Of a stretch of DNA of 64,000 bases, positions 3,639 through 64,000 are shown in pieces (positions within the stretch are counted from its first letter, which is position 1; each line of letters begins with the position of its first letter). Source of the stretch: Clostridia bacterium. GTDB lineage: Bacteria > Bacillota > Clostridia > CAKSNL01 > HGM11501. The translations under genes and the position numbers were made by a program. The notes below the pieces were generated by a model, which was not told the origin of the DNA, made no database searches, and saw only the letters and a program-made list of their open reading frames with translations. The DNA lies in assembly GCA_045545475.1 (NCBI GenBank), contig JAZQAZ010000034.1:33287-97286 (forward strand), read 5' to 3'.

Positions 3639-4769
3639 ATGTTTGAGCTTTTAAAGACTGAAAACAAGGCGAGGCGAGGTCGTTTTACTACGCCTCACGG
3701 TGTAATAGAAACCCCGGTTTTTATGAACGTTGGAACATCTGCCGCAATTAAAGGCGGCTTATCCGCCGAGGATTTAAGCGAGCTTCACTGTCAGGTGGAG
3801 CTTTCCAATACATATCATCTTCATGTACGTCCGGGGGATGAAGTCGTGAGAGACCTTGGCGGTATAAGAAAATTTATGAATTGGAACGGACCTGTATTAA
3901 CCGACAGTGGCGGCTTTCAGGTTTTCTCCCTTGCAGACCTTCGTAAAATAAAGGAAGAGGGCGTGTCTTTCAAGTCCCATCTTGACGGAACAAGAATTTT
4001 CATGGGACCCGAAGAGAGTATGCAGATTCAGTCAAATCTGGCATCCACCATTGCCATGGCCTTTGACGAGTGTATAGAAAATCCGGCACCCAAGGATTAT
4101 GTTAAAAACTCCATTGCGAGAACCACAAGATGGCTCCATCGCTGTAAGGCGGAAATGGCAAGGCTCAATTCCCTTCCCGACACAATAAATAAAGAGCAGA
4201 TGCTTTTTGGCATCAATCAGGGCGGAACTTATCCCGACCTCAGAATTGAGCACATGAAGGAAATTTCCGAGCTTGACCTTCCCGGCTACGCCATAGGCGG
4301 CCTTGCGGTGGGGGAAACCGCCGAAGAAATGTATGACATAATAGATGCTGTTGAACCCTTTATGCCAAAGGACAAGCCCCGTTACTTAATGGGTGTGGGA
4401 ACACCTGTAAATATTTTGGAAGGCGTGGCCCGAGGTGTTGACTTTTTCGATTGTGTAATGCCCAGCCGTAATGCCCGCCACGGCCTTTTATTTACCAGCG
4501 TGGGAATTATAAATTTAAACAATAACAGATATTTAAGGGACGAAAACCCCATAGACCCGAATTGCGACTGCCCTGCCTGCAGAAAGCATTCCCGCGGTTA
4601 CATCCGTCACCTTTTAAAGGCAAAGGAAATGCTTGGTATGCGTCTTTGTGTAATTCACAACATTCATTTCTACAATCAGATGATGCAGGATATAAGAGAC
4701 GCTCTTGACGAGGGCCGTTTTACGGAATTTTATAAAGAAAAAGTGGAGCTTTACGGTTCGAGATATTAA
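3639..4769 (+). CDS. tgt: queuine tRNA-ribosyltransferase
   Basis: MFELLKTENKARRGRFTTPHGVIETPVFMNVGT... and C-terminal zinc site CDCPAC...H typical of Tgt. Confidence 0.93.
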   Translation: MFELLKTENKARRGRFTTPHGVIETPVFMNVGTSAAIKGGLSAEDLSELHCQVELSNTYHLHVRPGDEVVRDLGGIRKFMNWNGPVLTDSGGFQVFSLADLRKIKEEGVSFKSHLDGTRIFMGPEESMQIQSNLASTIAMAFDECIENPAPKDYVKNSIARTTRWLHRCKAEMARLNSLPDTINKEQMLFGINQGGTYPDLRIEHMKEISELDLPGYAIGGLAVGETAEEMYDIIDAVEPFMPKDKPRYLMGVGTPVNILEGVARGVDFFDCVMPSRNARHGLLFTSVGIINLNNNRYLRDENPIDPNCDCPACRKHSRGYIRHLLKAKEMLGMRLCVIHNIHFYNQMMQDIRDALDEGRFTEFYKEKVELYGSRY

Positions 4770-24755: not shown

Positions 24756-24831
24756 GCTGGTGTGGCTCAGTCGGTAGAGCAATTGATTCGTAATCAATAG
24801 ATCGTCGGTTCAAGTCCGATCACCAGCTCCA
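24756..24831 (+). tRNA. tRNA-Thr (anticodon CGT)
   Basis: 76 nt, acceptor stem GCTGGTG/CACCAGC, D-loop AGTCGGTAGAGC, anticodon loop tTCGTAa, T-arm GGTTCAAGTCC, 3' CCA encoded; TTGACA-N18-TATAAT promoter upstream. Confidence 0.88.
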
Positions 24832-50149: not shown

Positions 50150-50312
50150 CTTGACAAAATAAGGATTATATGATATTATAATCAACGCAGTTATCCATAG
50201 ACAGCAGGCATAAAGGTAAGTCCTGCCGAGGAAGGTGCAAAAATCCATGAGATTTATGCGGCTTTGTCTATGTGACCAAGCCGCTTTTTTGCGGCTATAA
50301 ATTAAGAAGGAG
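50150..50312 (+). promoter_or_regulatory. rplJ (L10) leader region with promoter (TTGACA...TATAAT) and structured autoregulatory leader
   Basis: ttgacaaaataaggattatatgatattataat then ~120-nt structured leader with hairpin gaccaagccgcttttttgcggc before rplJ RBS; position matches L10-leader in Firmicutes. Confidence 0.5.
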
Positions 50313-60677: not shown

Positions 60678-61583
60678 TTGATTTTGTATATAGACAGCTT
60701 CTTTTTCATCAATTTTCTTTTTGATTTTCTTATTCTCTTTATAACGGCATATCTTGGCGGAATAAAAATCTGTTTTGGGAGACTTATTCTTTCATCAGTT
60801 ATCGGAAGTATTGCTTCCTGTATAGCGGTGCTTTTCGGCTTTGTGACGTCATTTTTCTTAAAAGCCGTAGTTATTGCTTTAATGAGCCTTGTTGCCTTTG
60901 GGTTTTCGTCCTTTAAGATATATTTAAGGCAGAGCGTATTGCTGTTTACGGGATTTTTCATTCAGGGAGGTGCTGCCGGTCTTTTGTCACTTTACGGAAA
61001 GGGAGATGTTTACAGCGGCATTTATCATGTGGACTTTCCGCTTATCGGGTTTCTTTTTCTGATAGTTATGGGGTTAAGTGCTACGTTTATTATTTCAGCA
61101 GGCATAAAAGAAAGAAGAGGAAAAATATTTGTGGCGGTGGAAATTTACAAAAACGGTGAGCGTTTTAAGCTTAAAGCACTCTATGACAGCGGAAATCTTT
61201 GTACCGATGTTTTGACTAATCTGCCCGTTATAGTGGCAGAAAATATATTTCCGGGAGTGCAAACTCGGGAGAATGTATTTACAACGGCGTCGGGAATCGG
61301 AGAAATGGGGATTTTTTATCCTGATTATGTAAGGGTAAATATAAAAGGAGAAACCTATGAAGGAAAAGATATAGCAATCGGTGTTGTAAATGAAAGGCTT
61401 TCGTCTGACCGCAGGTTTAATGCATTAATTGGAGGGATTTGTTTTGACAGACTTATTAAAGAAATTAATTCATCTTCTGGCTGTATTAAGGGGAGAAGAA
61501 GGAGTTTATTACATAGGGACGGCACATCCGCTCCCACCGCCCCTGGACATACAAGAGGAGGAAAAACTTTTAAGGGAGCTTAA
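60678..61583 (+). CDS. spoIIGA: sigma-E processing peptidase SpoIIGA
   Basis: [27 protein letters not shown]-terminus, 5 TM, C-terminal protease domain with NALIGG; ORF as read overlaps sigE by ~140 nt in another frame. Confidence 0.78.
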
Positions 61584-62148
61584 AGACGGAAACGAAAAAG
61601 CAAAGGAGGAACTTATCGAAAGAAACTTAAGACTTGTAATTTATATTGCAAGAAAATTTGAAAACACGGGAGTTGGAACAGAGGATTTGGTATCCATTGG
61701 TTCAATCGGACTTATCAAAGCCATAAACACATTTGATACGGATAAAAATATTAAGCTTGCAACCTATGCATCCAGATGTATAGAAAATGAAATTTTAATG
61801 TATCTTCGTAAAACCGGAAATCAAAGAACAGAAATTTCTCTGGATGAGCCGCTTAATACAGACTGGGATGGAAACGATTTGCTTTTATCCGAACTTCTGG
61901 GTACAGACGAGGATGTGGTGAACAGAAATATTGAAACAAAAACAGAGCATAAAATGCTTCTGGATGCTGTGGGAAGACTTGGGAAAAGAGAAAGGATAAT
62001 AATGAATTTGAGGTTTGGGCTTGACGGTTCTAATGAGAAAACTCAAAAAGAAGTGGCAGATTTGCTGGGAATATCGCAAAGCTATATATCGAGATTGGAA
62101 AAGAGAATTTTGGAAAAGCTTAAAAAGGAAATTATAAAATTAAGCTGA
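61444..62148 (+). CDS. sigE: RNA polymerase sporulation sigma factor E (pro-sigma-E); TTG start with GGAGGGA RBS (alternative TTG at 61429)
   Basis: [13 protein letters not shown] pro-sequence/region 1.2 junction, [13 protein letters not shown]..., [34 protein letters not shown] nearly identical to B. subtilis SigE. Confidence 0.9.
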
Positions 62149-62159
62149 AAGGAATTTTT

Positions 62160-62459
62160 ATGTATATAAATAAAGTGGAACTTTCGGGAGTTAACACATC
62201 AAAGCTTCCGGTTTTGACGAAAAAGGAAAAGGAAGAGCTTCTTTTAAGAATCAAAGAAGGAGACGGCCAGGCCCGGGAAAAATTTATAGGCGGAAATTTA
62301 AAGCTTGTCCTGAGCGTTATGCAACGTTTTTCATCCCGCGGAGAAAACCCGGATGATTTATTCCAGGTGGGTTGCATAGGGCTGATAAAGGCAATTGATA
62401 ATTTTGACATTACACAAAACGTACAGTTCAGTACGTACGCAGTGCCGATGAATGTATAA
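62160..62459 (+). pseudogene. sigG: sporulation sigma factor G, 5' fragment only (99 codons; regions 3-4 missing)
   Basis: VELSGVNTSKLPVL...GGNLKLVLSVMQRFSSRGENPDDLFQVGCIGLIKAIDNFD...VQFSTYAVPM then NV*; B. subtilis SigG continues ...AVPMIIGEIRRYLRD... for ~160 more aa. Confidence 0.7.
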
Positions 62460-62465
62460 AGGCAT

Positions 62466-62512
62466 GAAAAACGCATAGCTCAAAGAAAGGTTTGAAGCTA
62501 TGCGTTATTTTT
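62466..62512. terminator. bidirectional terminator at the sigG break / end of minus-strand cluster
   Basis: gaaaaacgcatagctcaaagaaaggtttgaagctatgcgttattttttt. Confidence 0.65.
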
Positions 62513-62518
62513 TTATGT

Positions 62519-63010
62519 TTATTTTTTTATGTTTAATTTTTTAAGGAGATTTTTTAATGCTCGTTTCGGAAGGCGAAAACGATTTTTTGCCTTTTTTTCT
62601 TTAATCATTTTCTCGGTATAGCGAGAATATTCTTCGCATTCGGAGAAGATTATTTCAATATCGTCTCTTATCATTCCTGATGCCACAGCAATCATATGTT
62701 GCCTTAAAATACCTTTTTCAAGAACAGTCTGATTGTCTCCGCACATTGTATAAGCATTACGTTCTTTTCTTATAACTCTGTGAAGAACGAATTTGCCGTC
62801 ATCTCTTTTATATAAAATTATATCTCCGGCTTTTACCTCATCGGGTAACGGGGAAAGAATAACTGAATCGTATCCTTCACGGATAAGAGGAAGCATGCTT
62901 GTTCCCCTGGGCATCATTGGAAAGGTATAGCCATTTTCAAGGGTTTCCCTTATCAGTGGCTCTAAGTCCTTCATGGAAAAGCTGATGCCCATTTTAATCC
63001 TCCAGAGCAC
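62519..63010 (-). CDS. S24/S26 (signal-peptidase/LexA-fold)-like peptidase, probable Ser-His variant
   Basis: PMMPRGTSMLPLI (cf. SPase box B GSSMxPTL), GDIILYKRDDGKFVLHRVI (cf. box D ...VKRIIG, Lys->His). Confidence 0.5.
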   Translation of the reverse strand: MLWRIKMGISFSMKDLEPLIRETLENGYTFPMMPRGTSMLPLIREGYDSVILSPLPDEVKAGDIILYKRDDGKFVLHRVIRKERNAYTMCGDNQTVLEKGILRQHMIAVASGMIRDDIEIIFSECEEYSRYTEKMIKEKKAKNRFRLPKRALKNLLKKLNIKK

Positions 63011-63263
63011 CGATGGAAGAAAGGGTGCTTATAAATTTGGTTATATCGGCATTTGCTGTTGCTTCATCAACATCATATTCGTTAAGGAAAGCATCAAGGA
63101 TTTCTTCTTTGCCCTTGCCTTCCGAGATGAGGTTAAATAAAAAAACACCTGTTTCGTTTAATGTAATGATTTTATTTTTGAGGTCTGGGTTAAGAAACAT
63201 TAAAATGTTTTCTCCGGCAATTTCCTTTAATATAAAGCCTGATTTGATTTTCATTTTTATCAT
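62994..63263 (-). CDS. PqqD-family protein (RiPP recognition element-like)
   Basis: 89 aa; ...ILMFLNPDLKNKIITLNETGVFLFNLISEGKGKEEILDAFLNEYDVDEATANADITKFISTLSSIGAL matches PqqD/RRE pattern. Confidence 0.7.
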   Translation of the reverse strand: MIKMKIKSGFILKEIAGENILMFLNPDLKNKIITLNETGVFLFNLISEGKGKEEILDAFLNEYDVDEATANADITKFISTLSSIGALED

Positions 63264-63964
63264 CCTTTCTTATTCATTGTCCGCTCGGCAATGATTGCGG
63301 CTTCATCTGATATATTGCATGAAAGTCTGTATGCAGGAATATGATTTAAAAAACTGTCAAGTAGAGTGAACAGTTTTTCGGTGGCTTCTTTTTCTTCAGG
63401 TATATACAACTGGTCAAATATTTTTAAGAGAACCTCTTTGCTGCTTATGGGACAGATACTGTTTTTTTTGGATCTTTCAATAAAGCAAAGGGCACCGACC
63501 TTTGCACGGGCGTTTTTATTATAGCCTTCTTTTCCGCACCAGGGAGTGCCGTATACATAAAACTCCCCGTCAATAAGTCTGAAAATGGGTTTATCCCCGT
63601 TTATTATAAAAGAGCCGGGGAAGTTTTTGAGCCACAGCATCGAATGGGTGGTTTTTCCCGTTCCGCTTTTAGCAGTAAAGACGTAGGCAACACCTTGATG
63701 AACCACCACGGAAGAATGCATCATAAAGGCGTTATGTGAAATAACCAGCGAACAGATTTTTCTGTAAAGACAAAGGGATTCGTGATAAGGAACAGGGAAG
63801 GCGGGTTCCTTCTTTGCGGCAAGAAGGAGATCATCTTCTGTAACCTCAACGGTGAAGTCGGCTTCATCTTCGGTCGTTACTACATAATCCTTTATAAGGT
63901 CAAGGGTGCATTTATACTTTATTTTTATATCGAACAACAAGTCGCAAAGCTTAAGCTTAAGCAT
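63260..63964 (-). CDS. HPr kinase/phosphorylase C-terminal-domain-like P-loop protein (HprK-related kinase)
   Basis: Walker A FTAKSGTGKTTHS followed by G-rich loop; size and P-loop position as in HprK C-domain; overlaps PqqD gene by 4 nt (ATGA). Confidence 0.6.
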   Translation of the reverse strand: MLKLKLCDLLFDIKIKYKCTLDLIKDYVVTTEDEADFTVEVTEDDLLLAAKKEPAFPVPYHESLCLYRKICSLVISHNAFMMHSSVVVHQGVAYVFTAKSGTGKTTHSMLWLKNFPGSFIINGDKPIFRLIDGEFYVYGTPWCGKEGYNKNARAKVGALCFIERSKKNSICPISSKEVLLKIFDQLYIPEEKEATEKLFTLLDSFLNHIPAYRLSCNISDEAAIIAERTMNKKG

Positions 63965-64000
63965 TTTACACCCTCCTTACAAATATACTTATTTCAGTAT

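What the first reader, a model, noticed from the sequence alone, without database searches (positions are those of the whole stretch)
62160..64000. sigG ends after codon 99 exactly where an HprK-like kinase / PqqD / signal-peptidase-like gene trio begins; cluster runs off the window
What the sequence shows:
- spoIIGA-sigE-sigG is the canonical contiguous sporulation-sigma arrangement, and spoIIGA and sigE are intact here.
- The sigG ORF matches SigG regions 1.2-2.4 almost residue for residue up to ...FSTYAVPM, then reads NV-stop. The roughly 160 residues of regions 3 and 4 are absent.
- Immediately 3' lies a bidirectional terminator (62466-62512).
- Then come three tightly overlapping minus-strand genes reading toward sigG.
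  - An HPr-kinase-C-domain-like P-loop protein (GTGKTT).
  - An 89-aa PqqD/RRE-like protein.
  - A signal-peptidase-fold protein whose box-D Lys is replaced by His (VLHRVI).

HprK-like kinase plus PqqD pairs are known from kinase-containing lasso-peptide loci (paeninodin type) and from an uncharacterised conserved neighbourhood. Here no lasso cyclase, B2 protease or precursor peptide is visible, and the protease partner is a signal-peptidase-like protein instead.

Either an uncharacterised RiPP-like or peptide-modification system has inserted into, or replaced the 3' half of, sigG. Alternatively, sigG is split by an intervening element whose other end is beyond 64000.
Basis: partly seen in the sequence, partly recalled or inferred. 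Interest (0 to 1): 0.78.

Follow-up and report, generated by a model that had tools for sequence, protein, structure and literature searches.

The report
sigG split at a recombinase site
The gene for the spore-compartment sigma factor SigG is cut in two exactly at the docking site of a family of phage integrases. In this bacterium's lineage the cut has become permanent yet the remaining half is still kept intact by selection, which suggests the gene is re-joined by DNA recombination in the cell that becomes the spore.

Summary
The observation mostly holds. sigG stops after codon 97 (then Asn-Val-stop). A strong bidirectional terminator follows, then a complete three-gene minus-strand operon: a soluble SipW-type S24 peptidase, PqqD, and a 234-aa P-loop protein.

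The interpretation needs changing. The operon did not make the break. The break is the attachment site of large-serine-recombinase (LSR) phages that target sigG codons 95-100 in gut Clostridia. Evidence from related sequences:
- a free phage attP;
- a complete 61-kb prophage flanked by both sigG halves;
- 14 metagenomic attR junctions;
- a recombinase gene directly upstream of the 3' half.

In this organism's clade no phage DNA is left at this locus. What remains is a 57-nt attL that is identical between species whose synonymous sites are saturated, and a 5' fragment evolving under the same constraint as intact sigG. To its right, sister species carry different core genes (this operon; spoIIAA-spoIIAB-sigF; fur; pgk-tpi), with no compositional break.

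I infer a distant recombinase-attR-sigG-3' locus that is re-joined to this fragment during sporulation, by inversion or reversible excision, because SigG acts in the germ-line forespore. That partner was not found for this species (absent from -62 to +10 kb), so a dead relic is not excluded. No paper in the searched library describes a split sigG.

The parts
60678..61583 (+). spoIIGA (pro-sigma-E protease), a single 301-codon ORF with a TTG start that overlaps the start of sigE
   Evidence: Pfam Peptidase_U4, E 2.5e-38. The same intact ORF is present in L001.
61429..62148 (+). sigE (pro-sigma-E), full length
   Evidence: Sigma70_r2 and Sigma70_r4. pN/pS against L011 is 0.125/0.678.
62160..62459 (+). 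sigG 5' segment: SigG codons 1-97 (62160-62450), then AAT GTA TAA supplied by the foreign arm
   Evidence: The identical product lies on 12 independent contigs. pN 0.078 at pS 0.80 against L011.
62415..62471 (.). attL-type recombination site. It consists of 30 nt of sigG (B arm), the 7-nt core CCGATGA (62445-62451) shared with intact sigG and with attR/attP, and a P' arm of about 20 nt, ATGTATAAAGGCATGAAAAA.
   Evidence: - The 57 nt are 100% identical to L011, although synonymous sites elsewhere are saturated.
- Synonymous codons are 11/11 identical in codons 86-97 against 29/73 in codons 1-85, p = 1.2e-4.
- The P' arm is the reverse complement of the P arm ACATTCAT found before sigG 3' halves and in the phage attP.
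62460..62520 (.). bidirectional intrinsic terminator (hairpin flanked by an A-run and a U-run)
   Evidence: Fold energy -25.3 kcal/mol, z = -7.75. A different hairpin sits at the same place in L011.
62519..63010 (-). Soluble SipW/archaeal-type (Ser38/His77) S24-family peptidase. The likely true start is at 62992 (157 aa).
   Evidence: Pfam S24, 25.1 bits. TIGR02228, E 1.8e-8, below its cutoff. GTSMLP and HRV motifs are present and there is no hydrophobic segment.
62994..63263 (-). PqqD-family (RRE-type) small protein
   Evidence: Pfam PqqD, E 1.1e-14. The lasso-type PqqD models match only below their cutoffs.
63260..63964 (-). 234-aa P-loop protein (SGTGKTT), first gene of the operon. It belongs to a very large uncharacterised family of proteins of about 235 aa.
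   Evidence: - 8,307 clusters at 50% identity match at E <= 1e-3, and 591 at E <= 1e-30.
- Invariant residues are H83, G101, G103, K104, T106, W111, D124, P141, W142 and G144.
- There are only weak hits to HprK_rel_A, ScmC, PEPCK and HprK.

Best explanation
The 99-codon ORF is the 5' segment of sigG. It is cut at the attachment site used by a family of phage large serine recombinases (LSRs) that integrate into sigG codons 95-100 in gut Clostridia.

In this organism and its sister species no phage DNA is left at this locus. The locus keeps only a functional attL of about 57 bp: sigG arm, core CCGATGA, and a phage-derived arm of about 20 nt. Ordinary chromosome follows directly. Here that is a terminator and an unrelated S24-peptidase/PqqD/P-loop operon.

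The matching piece would be a recombinase gene, then attR, then sigG codons 97-258, as seen in L126-L128, L143 and L150-L159. I infer that it lies elsewhere on the chromosome and that the recombinase, with a directionality factor, re-joins the halves during sporulation to make sigG.

SigG acts in the forespore, whose chromosome is inherited, and the DNA next to attL carries core genes. The reaction is therefore most likely an inversion, or an excision that is reversed on germination, rather than the one-way deletion seen for mother-cell genes.

Shown: the cut, its identity with an LSR att site, conservation of the site, purifying selection on the fragment, and the native flank. Inferred: that the partner locus exists in this genome, the timing, and the topology.
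For: 1. Truncation at the same codon with the same arm occurs in at least five species-level groups. These are the window with L001-L010, then L011, L139-L142, L106-L113 with L172-L176, and L076.

2. 3' halves start at the same ATG and are preceded by the mirror-image arm ACATTCATTCCN. L091 and L092 were found by protein search, independently of any DNA pattern. A further 14 of 15 hits to a DNA pattern built from those two junctions turned out to be sigG 3' junctions.

3. Phage origin:
- The free phage contig L103 has, in order, the LSR C-terminus, attP GGTACATTCATCGGCATGAATGTACC, and p202. The prophage in L121/L115 carries the same p202 (95-100% identity) next to attR, together with terminase, portal and capsid genes.
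- IMGVR_UViG_3300045988_022179 (60,979 bp) has the sigG 5' segment at one end and LSR, attR and the sigG 3' segment at the other, on the same strand, with PHROG phage genes at both ends.
- Dulem virus 39 has an attP after its integrase with the core GTGCCAATGATTAT.

4. The LSR (PF00239, PF07508, PF13408) lies directly upstream of attR and the sigG 3' segment in L126-L128, L117, L114 and L143.

5. Selection:
- The fragment shows pN 0.07-0.08 at saturated pS against L011 and L139. That is the same range as between species with intact sigG, 0.03-0.15.
- All six members of the fragment's own 90% cluster keep the short open frame (five of 99 aa, one of 102), and 22 clusters in all end in the same Asn-Val-stop.

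6. The att block is invariant at synonymous and non-coding positions.

7. Sporulation genes around the site are intact: spoIIGA and sigE here, and spoIIAA-spoIIAB-sigF in L139.

8. 9 of 9 attR loci lack a Shine-Dalgarno-like motif before the ATG, so the 3' halves are unlikely to be translated on their own.
Against: - The 3' half and the recombinase were not found for this species or for any of its four sister groups. They are absent from the 64-kb window, from 9.5-10 kb downstream, and from all class-A loci. I could not search the rest of those genomes.
- No re-joined (attB) form of this species' sigG was seen.
- The loci where an LSR abuts sigG 3' next to core genes (L127, L128) come from other habitats (I believe termite gut, from the sample identifiers; not checked here). 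They cannot be tied to this clade.
- In L139 the spoIIA operon starts 10 nt after the 22-nt arm (32 nt after the fragment's stop codon). Recombination there would change what lies upstream of an essential sporulation operon.
- L106 carries a decayed antitoxin remnant after the arm, as expected of a decaying element.
Confidence: 0.55

Rival explanations
1. Dead relic. A phage integrated into sigG in an ancestor. A later deletion or rearrangement removed the prophage and the 3' half. The lineage no longer makes SigG, either because it is asporogenous or because another factor substitutes, and the fragment is a leftover.
For: - There is no 3' half, recombinase or phage gene within -62 to +10 kb.
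- Ordinary genes abut the arm.
- A decayed Phd-like antitoxin remnant lies in L106.
- Loss of sporulation is common in gut Clostridia (general knowledge).
Against: - The junction predates the split of the window species, L011 and L139, whose synonymous sites are saturated. Even so, the fragment keeps an open 97-codon frame with pN about 0.08, as constrained as intact sigG.
- The 57-nt att block is invariant, including its non-coding part.
- spoIIGA, sigE and the spoIIA operon remain intact.
Confidence: 0.2
2. One reading: the S24/PqqD/P-loop cassette is a RiPP-like system, or the cargo of a mobile element, that inserted into or replaced the 3' half of sigG.
For: - The cassette lies 60 nt from the sigG stop here and in L011.
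- A related S24/P-loop pair lies 2 kb from a sigG 3' half in L091.
Against: - The same junction occurs without the cassette in L139, L106, L173 and L076.
- The cassette is absent from 75 loci with intact sigG and from all other attR loci.
- There is no compositional break.
- There is no integrase, cyclase, B2 protease, radical-SAM enzyme or precursor nearby.
- The L091 species is distant: its SigG N-terminus is 61% identical.
- The P-loop protein belongs to a family with thousands of clusters.
Confidence: 0.04
3. Two-piece sigma factor. The N-terminal (regions 1.2-2.3) and C-terminal (regions 2.4-4) polypeptides are made separately and assemble on RNA polymerase, with no DNA rearrangement.
For: The 3' halves begin with an ATG (codon 97). 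Both pieces are conserved.
Against: - By comparison with the sigma-70 region map (my own knowledge, not tested here), the cut falls inside the conserved FSTYAVPMIIGEIRRY stretch of region 2.3/2.4.
- No ribosome-binding motif lies before the ATG in 9 of 9 loci.
- This reading does not explain why the DNA of the att block is conserved at silent and non-coding positions.
- It also does not explain why a serine recombinase gene abuts the 3' half.
Confidence: 0.04
4. Population switch rather than developmental step. The same recombinase reaction occurs, but rarely and reversibly in growing cells. Only a minority of cells carry an intact sigG and can finish sporulation (bet-hedging phase variation).
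For: - The structural evidence is the same as for the best explanation.
- All assemblies show only the split form, as expected if the intact form is a minority.
Against: - There is no evidence on timing either way.
- Known sporulation-gene rearrangements are developmentally timed (PMC4191935, PMC5595907, PMC5025042).
Confidence: 0.12

Closest known systems
skin element in sigK (B. subtilis SpoIVCA; C. difficile skinCd with its directionality factor)
   Same: - A sporulation sigma-factor gene is split into 5' and 3' segments at a serine-recombinase site.
- The element is a decayed prophage.
- The recombinase gene lies next to one junction.
- The gene is re-made by attL x attR recombination (PMC4191935, PMC5025042).
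   Different: - sigK is a mother-cell gene, and the excised DNA is lost with the dying mother cell.
- Here the gene is sigG, which acts in the forespore (PMC4191935 introduction).
- No element DNA is left next to attL.
- The flank is core chromosome.
- The partner half was not found.
SPbeta prophage in spsM (SprA integrase with SprB)
   Same: - An active LSR prophage splits a sporulation gene.
- The att sites are about 50 bp with a short common core and inverted repeats.
- This corresponds to the true prophages found here in sigG: L121/L115, L177, and IMG/VR contig 022179.
   Different: - Excision of SPbeta is restricted to the mother cell, and the prophage stays in the spore genome (PMC4191935).
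- For sigG the compartment that needs the gene is the one whose genome is inherited.
gin element in gerE of B. cereus ATCC 10987
   Same: It shows that a gene-intervening element need not be phage-like and can be little more than recombinase genes plus att sites (PMC5595907).
   Different: - gin is a discrete 28.6-kb insert in a mother-cell gene.
- Here no discrete insert can be delimited.
Reversible 'active lysogeny' (Listeria comK prophage; Streptococcus SpyCIM1 at mutL), as summarised in PMC7192596
   Same: The element leaves and re-enters the target gene in cells that go on to reproduce. A forespore gene would need this logic.
   Different: - In those cases the element is an intact, discrete prophage or island.
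- They are not linked to sporulation.
- sigG is not among the known or newly proposed cases in that survey.
Kinase-containing lasso-peptide loci and the SynChlorMet (ScmC/ScmD) cassette, for the three-gene operon only
   Same: A PqqD-family protein is paired with a P-loop protein that weakly resembles HprK-related kinases and ScmC.
   Different: - All matches are far below the curated cutoffs.
- There is no lasso cyclase, B2 protease, radical-SAM enzyme or precursor within 10 kb.
- The protease partner is a soluble SipW-type S24 peptidase.

Membership tests
Sporulation-gene intervening element / regulated gene integrity by a large serine recombinase | The host gene is interrupted at one precise position, shared by independent genomes | tested here: met
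   The same codon and the same arm occur in five species-level groups. 3' halves begin at the same ATG.
Sporulation-gene intervening element / regulated gene integrity by a large serine recombinase | att sites of about 50 bp with a short common core and inverted-repeat arms | tested here: met
   The core is CCGATGA. The arms ACATTCAT and ATGAATGT are mirror images. A 57-nt block is conserved.
Sporulation-gene intervening element / regulated gene integrity by a large serine recombinase | A recombinase gene is encoded next to one att site | tested here: inconclusive
   This is met in related loci: L126-L128, L143, L150-L159 and L161-L165. It is not met at this locus or in any sister species within +/-10 kb.
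Sporulation-gene intervening element / regulated gene integrity by a large serine recombinase | The 3' segment of the gene is present in the same genome | not testable with these tools
   Only -62 to +10 kb around the fragment could be read.
Sporulation-gene intervening element / regulated gene integrity by a large serine recombinase | The intervening DNA is a discrete foreign element (prophage-like or other) | tested here: not met
   The right flank has native GC content and GC skew. It holds core genes: ileS here, spoIIA-tsaEB-glnA in L139, and pgk-tpi in L173.
Sporulation-gene intervening element / regulated gene integrity by a large serine recombinase | The gene is re-joined during sporulation | not testable with these tools
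   This needs DNA from sporulating cells or spores. The indirect support is purifying selection.
SigG (NCBIfam NF006071 / TIGR02850) | Full-length match including regions 3 and 4, above the curated cutoff | tested here: not met
   163 bits against a cutoff of 372. Only profile positions 1-98 of 258 are matched. This is a SigG fragment, not a SigG.
Lasso-peptide gene cluster (kinase-containing type) | Asn-synthetase-like cyclase, transglutaminase-like B2 protease, and a precursor peptide | tested here: not met
   None is among the called genes and Pfam hits within 8-10 kb on either side. No conserved small ORF lies in the operon's flanks.
Lasso-peptide gene cluster (kinase-containing type) | Lasso-type PqqD (B1) above the curated cutoff | tested here: not met
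   NF033530 scores 36 bits against a cutoff of 70. NF033536 scores 29.6 bits against 80.
SynChlorMet cassette | ScmC and ScmD equivalogs plus the radical-SAM enzymes ScmE/ScmF | tested here: not met
   ScmC scores 13.8 bits against a cutoff of 125. ScmD scores 16.8 bits against 100. There is no radical-SAM gene nearby.
HPr kinase C-terminal domain fold | Significant sequence or structure match to HprK/P | tested here: inconclusive
   A profile of 34 family members hits HprK chains at E about 0.09 and PEPCK at E 0.005. The AlphaFold single-sequence model was unusable, with pLDDT 31.
Peptidase S24/S26, SipW/archaeal signal-peptidase type | Profile match, with a catalytic Ser in a G-x-S-M-x-P motif and a His in an H-R-[VI] motif | tested here: met
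   Pfam S24 scores 25.1 bits against a cutoff of 23.3. TIGR02228 matches at E 1.8e-8 but below its cutoff. GTSMLP lies at residue 36 and HRV at residue 77, and there is no membrane segment.

The most novel reading that the evidence does not exclude
A programmed DNA rearrangement in the bacterial germ line. A domesticated phage serine integrase would flip a large stretch of core chromosome, or cut it out and later put it back, in the forespore to assemble sigG. It would reset the split state after germination. This would be a natural 'set/reset' recombinase switch gating the late forespore programme, fixed in a clade of ruminant and gut Clostridia.
Probability: 0.3. Interest if true: 0.92.

Novelty: new variant of a known kind. 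Interest (0 to 1): 0.8.

Why it matters
Every sporulation-gene rearrangement described so far (sigK, spsM, gerE, spoVFB, spoVR) affects a gene used in the mother cell. That cell dies, so the deletion is never inherited. The papers read here use this to explain why such elements are tolerated (PMC4191935, PMC5595907, PMC7192596).

A split sigG breaks that rule, because SigG works in the compartment whose chromosome becomes the next generation. Two things follow.
- sigG is a common integration target for gut phages. This raises the question of whether lysogens can sporulate and whether spores are cured of the phage.
- In one clade the split is old, fixed and still under selection. This calls for a non-destructive or reversible recombination, which would be a new kind of developmental control.

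Both points can be tested directly with spore DNA from ruminant or human gut samples.

There is also a practical consequence. Annotation pipelines currently call the fragment an ordinary 'sigma-70 family' protein (MBR6719828.1), and gene-presence surveys could score such genomes either way.

Tried and rejected
Searches for the partner half:
- Exact look-ups of the P-loop and PqqD proteins found nothing.
- I looked for the 3' half through protein searches with the C-terminal halves of a relative and of P0055. Several 161-aa hits were artefacts of N-runs or assembly errors. These include P0123 (L104), P0279 (L129-L138), and its cluster-mate P0105 by inference. The real ones belonged to other species.
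- No partner att site lies in the window.

Searches for the phage:
- Palindrome and attP patterns in IMG/VR gave one true hit (L103), recognised only later. The rest were chance hits, or there were none.
- p202 has no match in INPHARED.

Synteny test:
- A deletion model based on L091 synteny proposed that the S24/P-loop pair lies downstream of sigG ancestrally. I rejected it because L091 is a distant species, with a SigG N-terminus 61% identical. Closer species with intact sigG lack the pair.

Work on the operon:
- Structure prediction of the P-loop protein from a single sequence failed (pLDDT 31).
- PADLOC has no hit for the three proteins.
- Rfam finds nothing at the locus.

Alternatives dismissed from the sequence alone (my own reasoning):
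- A split intein, because only two extra residues follow codon 97.
- Group II trans-splicing, because there are no intron boundary motifs.

Caveat: all 120 best relatives of the fragment were short. The word-based candidate filter may favour short proteins, so I do not use this as a frequency estimate.
Full report
**What is in the window**

The plus strand carries spoIIGA (60678-61583), sigE (61429-62148) and a 99-codon ORF (62160-62459).
- The ORF's first 97 codons are SigG. They are 66% identical to a B. subtilis SigG probe over residues 1-97. They match the NCBIfam SigG equivalog over profile positions 1-98 of 258 (E 7.9e-48). They carry only sigma region 2 in Pfam.
- After ...FSTYAVPM the frame reads Asn-Val-stop.
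- No region 3/4 coding sequence other than that of sigE exists in the 64-kb window.
- A hairpin follows, flanked by an A-run and a U-run (-25.3 kcal/mol, z = -7.75).
- Then come three overlapping minus-strand genes: an S24-family peptidase, a PqqD protein and a 234-aa P-loop protein.
- The identical 99-aa product occurs on 12 independent metagenome or MAG contigs of the same species, at about 98.3% DNA identity.
- The longest of these contigs (L001) shows that the operon is complete. It is followed by ThuA, an AraC regulator, a creatininase-family gene, ileS and a trehalase. There is no integrase and no sigG 3' half.

**The breakpoint is shared and is a recombinase site**

A scan of species-representative genomes returned 80 loci.
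- 75 of them have a full-length sigG.
- L011 (89% identical fragment) and L076 (74%) stop at the same codon with the same following bases (CCGATG|AATGTA...).

Separate sigG 3' halves begin at the same ATG.
- In L091 and L092, found by protein search, they are preceded by ...(T/G)ACATTCATTCC(G/T)|ATGAT....
- ACATTCAT is the reverse complement of the ATGAATGT that follows the cut in the window. The two junctions therefore look like the attL and attR of an element whose attP is an inverted repeat around the core CCGATGA.
- A metagenome scan with the attR pattern gave 15 hits. 14 of them are sigG 3' junctions.

**Phages do this**

- The viral contig L103 carries the C-terminus of a large serine recombinase, then GGTACATTCATCGGCATGAATGTACC, then a gene (p202). 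That gene is 95-100% identical to the one next to attR in the prophages L121/L115/L125, which continue with a small tyrosine recombinase, HNH, terminase, portal and capsid genes.
- IMGVR_UViG_3300045988_022179 (60,979 bp) has the sigG 5' segment at positions 121-405. At its other end it has integrase (phrog_95), attR and the sigG 3' segment. Both halves are on the same strand, and phage genes lie at both ends.
- Ten viral contigs show recombinase, attR, sigG 3'. Seven show sigG 5', attL, then the recombinase on the opposite strand.
- Several recombinase families cut within the same dozen bases.
- In GenBank, MT839977.1 ('Bacteriophage sp.') is a recombinase-attR-sigG 3' junction.
- Dulem virus 39 has an attP after its integrase whose core is the sigG sequence GTGCCAATGATTAT.
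- At least one such prophage is polymorphic. An intact SigG (P0083) is 100% identical to the 3' half in L091.

**In this clade the split is old, fixed and maintained**

- The window species, L011 and L139-L142 share the sigG arm and 22 nt of foreign arm exactly.
- L106-L113 and L172-L176 share a close variant.
- Between the window and L011, synonymous sites are saturated (pS 0.80). Yet the fragment has pN 0.078 and is the most constrained gene in the neighbourhood.
- Across split lineages pN is 0.07-0.22. Between lineages with intact sigG it is 0.03-0.15 at similar pS.
- A 57-nt block around the cut is 100% identical between the window and L011. It consists of 30 nt of sigG, the 7-nt core and 20 nt beyond it.
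- Among codons with the same amino acid, 11 of 11 are identical in codons 86-97 against 29 of 73 in codons 1-85 (p = 1.2e-4).
- This block size fits the roughly 50-bp att sites described for such systems (PMC5595907).
- A pseudogene would not keep either property.

**The right flank is ordinary chromosome and differs between sister species**

After the arm come the following:
- in the window and L011, a terminator and the three-gene operon;
- in L139, spoIIAA-spoIIAB-sigF-tsaE-tsaB-rpiB-nrdR-glnA, starting 10 nt after the arm;
- in L106, L172 and L173, fur-rubrerythrin and onward to pgk-tpi;
- in L076, an H+-pyrophosphatase.

GC content and GC skew are the same on both sides. None of these loci holds a sigG 3' half or a related recombinase within +/-10 kb, and the window holds no partner site. 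The three-gene operon is therefore a lineage-specific neighbour. It is neither the cause of the break nor cargo.

**What the partner probably looks like**

In L126, L127, L128, L117, L114 and L143, a 465-495-aa recombinase gene lies directly upstream of attR and the sigG 3' segment, on the same strand. It has Resolvase, Recombinase and Zn-ribbon domains. In L128 the next genes are rplM-rpsI, and in L127 they are polysaccharide-synthesis genes. So there too the surroundings are chromosomal rather than phage. None of nine attR loci has a ribosome-binding motif before the ATG. This argues against separate translation of the halves.

**Mechanism**

I conclude that this locus is the attL side of a domesticated serine-recombinase system and that sigG is re-made by attL x attR recombination.

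SigG is the late forespore factor (stated in PMC4191935), and the forespore genome is inherited. The one-way deletion used for mother-cell genes would therefore lose DNA from the lineage, and here that DNA includes core genes. An inversion loses nothing. An excision whose circle stays in the non-dividing forespore and re-integrates on germination also loses nothing.

Serine integrases can do both, with direction set by an accessory factor (PMC5499854 and PMC5025042 for the factor; that they can invert is my own knowledge of engineered integrase switches). Which topology applies cannot be decided without seeing both halves on one molecule. For this clade the existence of the partner remains an inference. 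The main rival is a relic. It fits the missing partner but not the selection data.

**The operon**

- The peptidase has the Ser/His motifs of SipW/archaeal-type signal peptidases but no membrane segment.
- PqqD is clear.
- The P-loop protein belongs to a very large family of proteins of about 235 aa (8,307 clusters at 50% identity). The family has invariant His, Walker-A, Trp, Asp and PW-G motifs. No Pfam model captures it at threshold. It resembles HprK and PEPCK only at the P-loop.
- No lasso, radical-SAM or precursor gene is nearby, and there is no defence-system match.
- It is a small peptide-maturation-like cassette of unknown function, 61-67% identical in L011 with pN/pS 0.26-0.36.

**Novelty**

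Full-text searches on sigG or spoIIIG together with intervening element, prophage, attB, integrase or serine recombinase found no description of a split sigG. A systematic survey of genes regulated by integrative elements lists sigK, spsM and gerE but not sigG. NCBI names the fragment simply a sigma-70 family protein. I rate this a new variant of a known kind. The enzyme class and the logic of a split sporulation gene are known. The target compartment, the absence of a discrete element and the implied non-destructive reaction are not.

Noticed in passing
L020 around 10283, L030 around 5304, L039 around 2406 (not in the window): In another group of species sigG carries one extra C between codon 99 (Ile) and codon 100 (Gly): ATG ATA AT(A/T) C GG(A/C) GAA GT. 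The zero frame stops 10 codons later, giving the 107/108-aa 'IIRR..KIFKR*' products. There are about 45 such clusters, one of them on 199 contigs. Both halves are under purifying selection (5' pN/pS 0.052/0.431; 3' pN/pS 0.058/0.499). This looks like a conserved +1 recoding site at a rare CGG codon, 5 nt from the integrase core.
   Followed up: partly
L139 10290-10340 (also L140, L141): In a sister species the spoIIAA-spoIIAB-sigF operon starts 10 nt after the 22-nt foreign arm (32 nt after the fragment's stop codon), with no terminator between. The sigF operon would therefore be read through from sigE and the sigG 5' segment, and its upstream DNA would change if the site recombines.
   Followed up: partly
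L115 974-4772: In the host of the L121-type prophage, the sigG 3' half is convergent with an RNase J-like gene, sigE and spoIIGA, all on the opposite strand. sigG is therefore not in the usual spoIIGA-sigE-sigG order there.
   Followed up: no
L091 9263-10427: An S24-like/P-loop gene pair (45% and 35% identical to the window's, with no PqqD) lies 2 kb downstream of a prophage-split sigG 3' half. The species is distant, with a SigG N-terminus 61% identical. This may be coincidence or an unexplained link with sigG.
   Followed up: partly
L106 10300-10500: Right after the foreign arm lies a decayed Phd/YefM-like antitoxin reading frame (MTTVTATDM*..NNFGKYLKMAQDGEEMAIT). It is a likely remnant of the original element.
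   Followed up: no
L143 (GenBank MT839977.1) and L144 (Dulem virus 39, PP511791.1) 3850-3900: A GenBank record labelled 'Bacteriophage sp.' is in fact a recombinase-attR-sigG 3' junction that includes host DNA. A complete lemur-gut phage genome has an attP whose core equals the sigG target.
   Followed up: partly
window 62493-62520: The T-rich stretch after the terminator contains a 14-nt tandem duplication (TTTTTTTATGTTTA x2). It is absent from the other contigs of the same species and is the only indel in 5.7 kb.
   Followed up: no
L127 7818-8351: A 177-aa DUF402 protein is encoded between the recombinase gene and attR. Its position would suit an accessory or directionality factor, but it is absent from L128.
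   Followed up: no
L001 9860-9890 and L011 11833-11860: In the divergent promoter region between the P-loop gene and ThuA there is a conserved ATGACAAAAAA(G/A)T(G/A)CTGTTTT element. In this species it could encode a 9-aa Cys-rich micro-ORF (MTKKCCFCA). It is more likely an operator.
   Followed up: no
window 50177-50298 and 24756-24828: Rfam finds a ribosomal protein L10 leader and one tRNA. No other known RNA family is present in the window.
   Followed up: no
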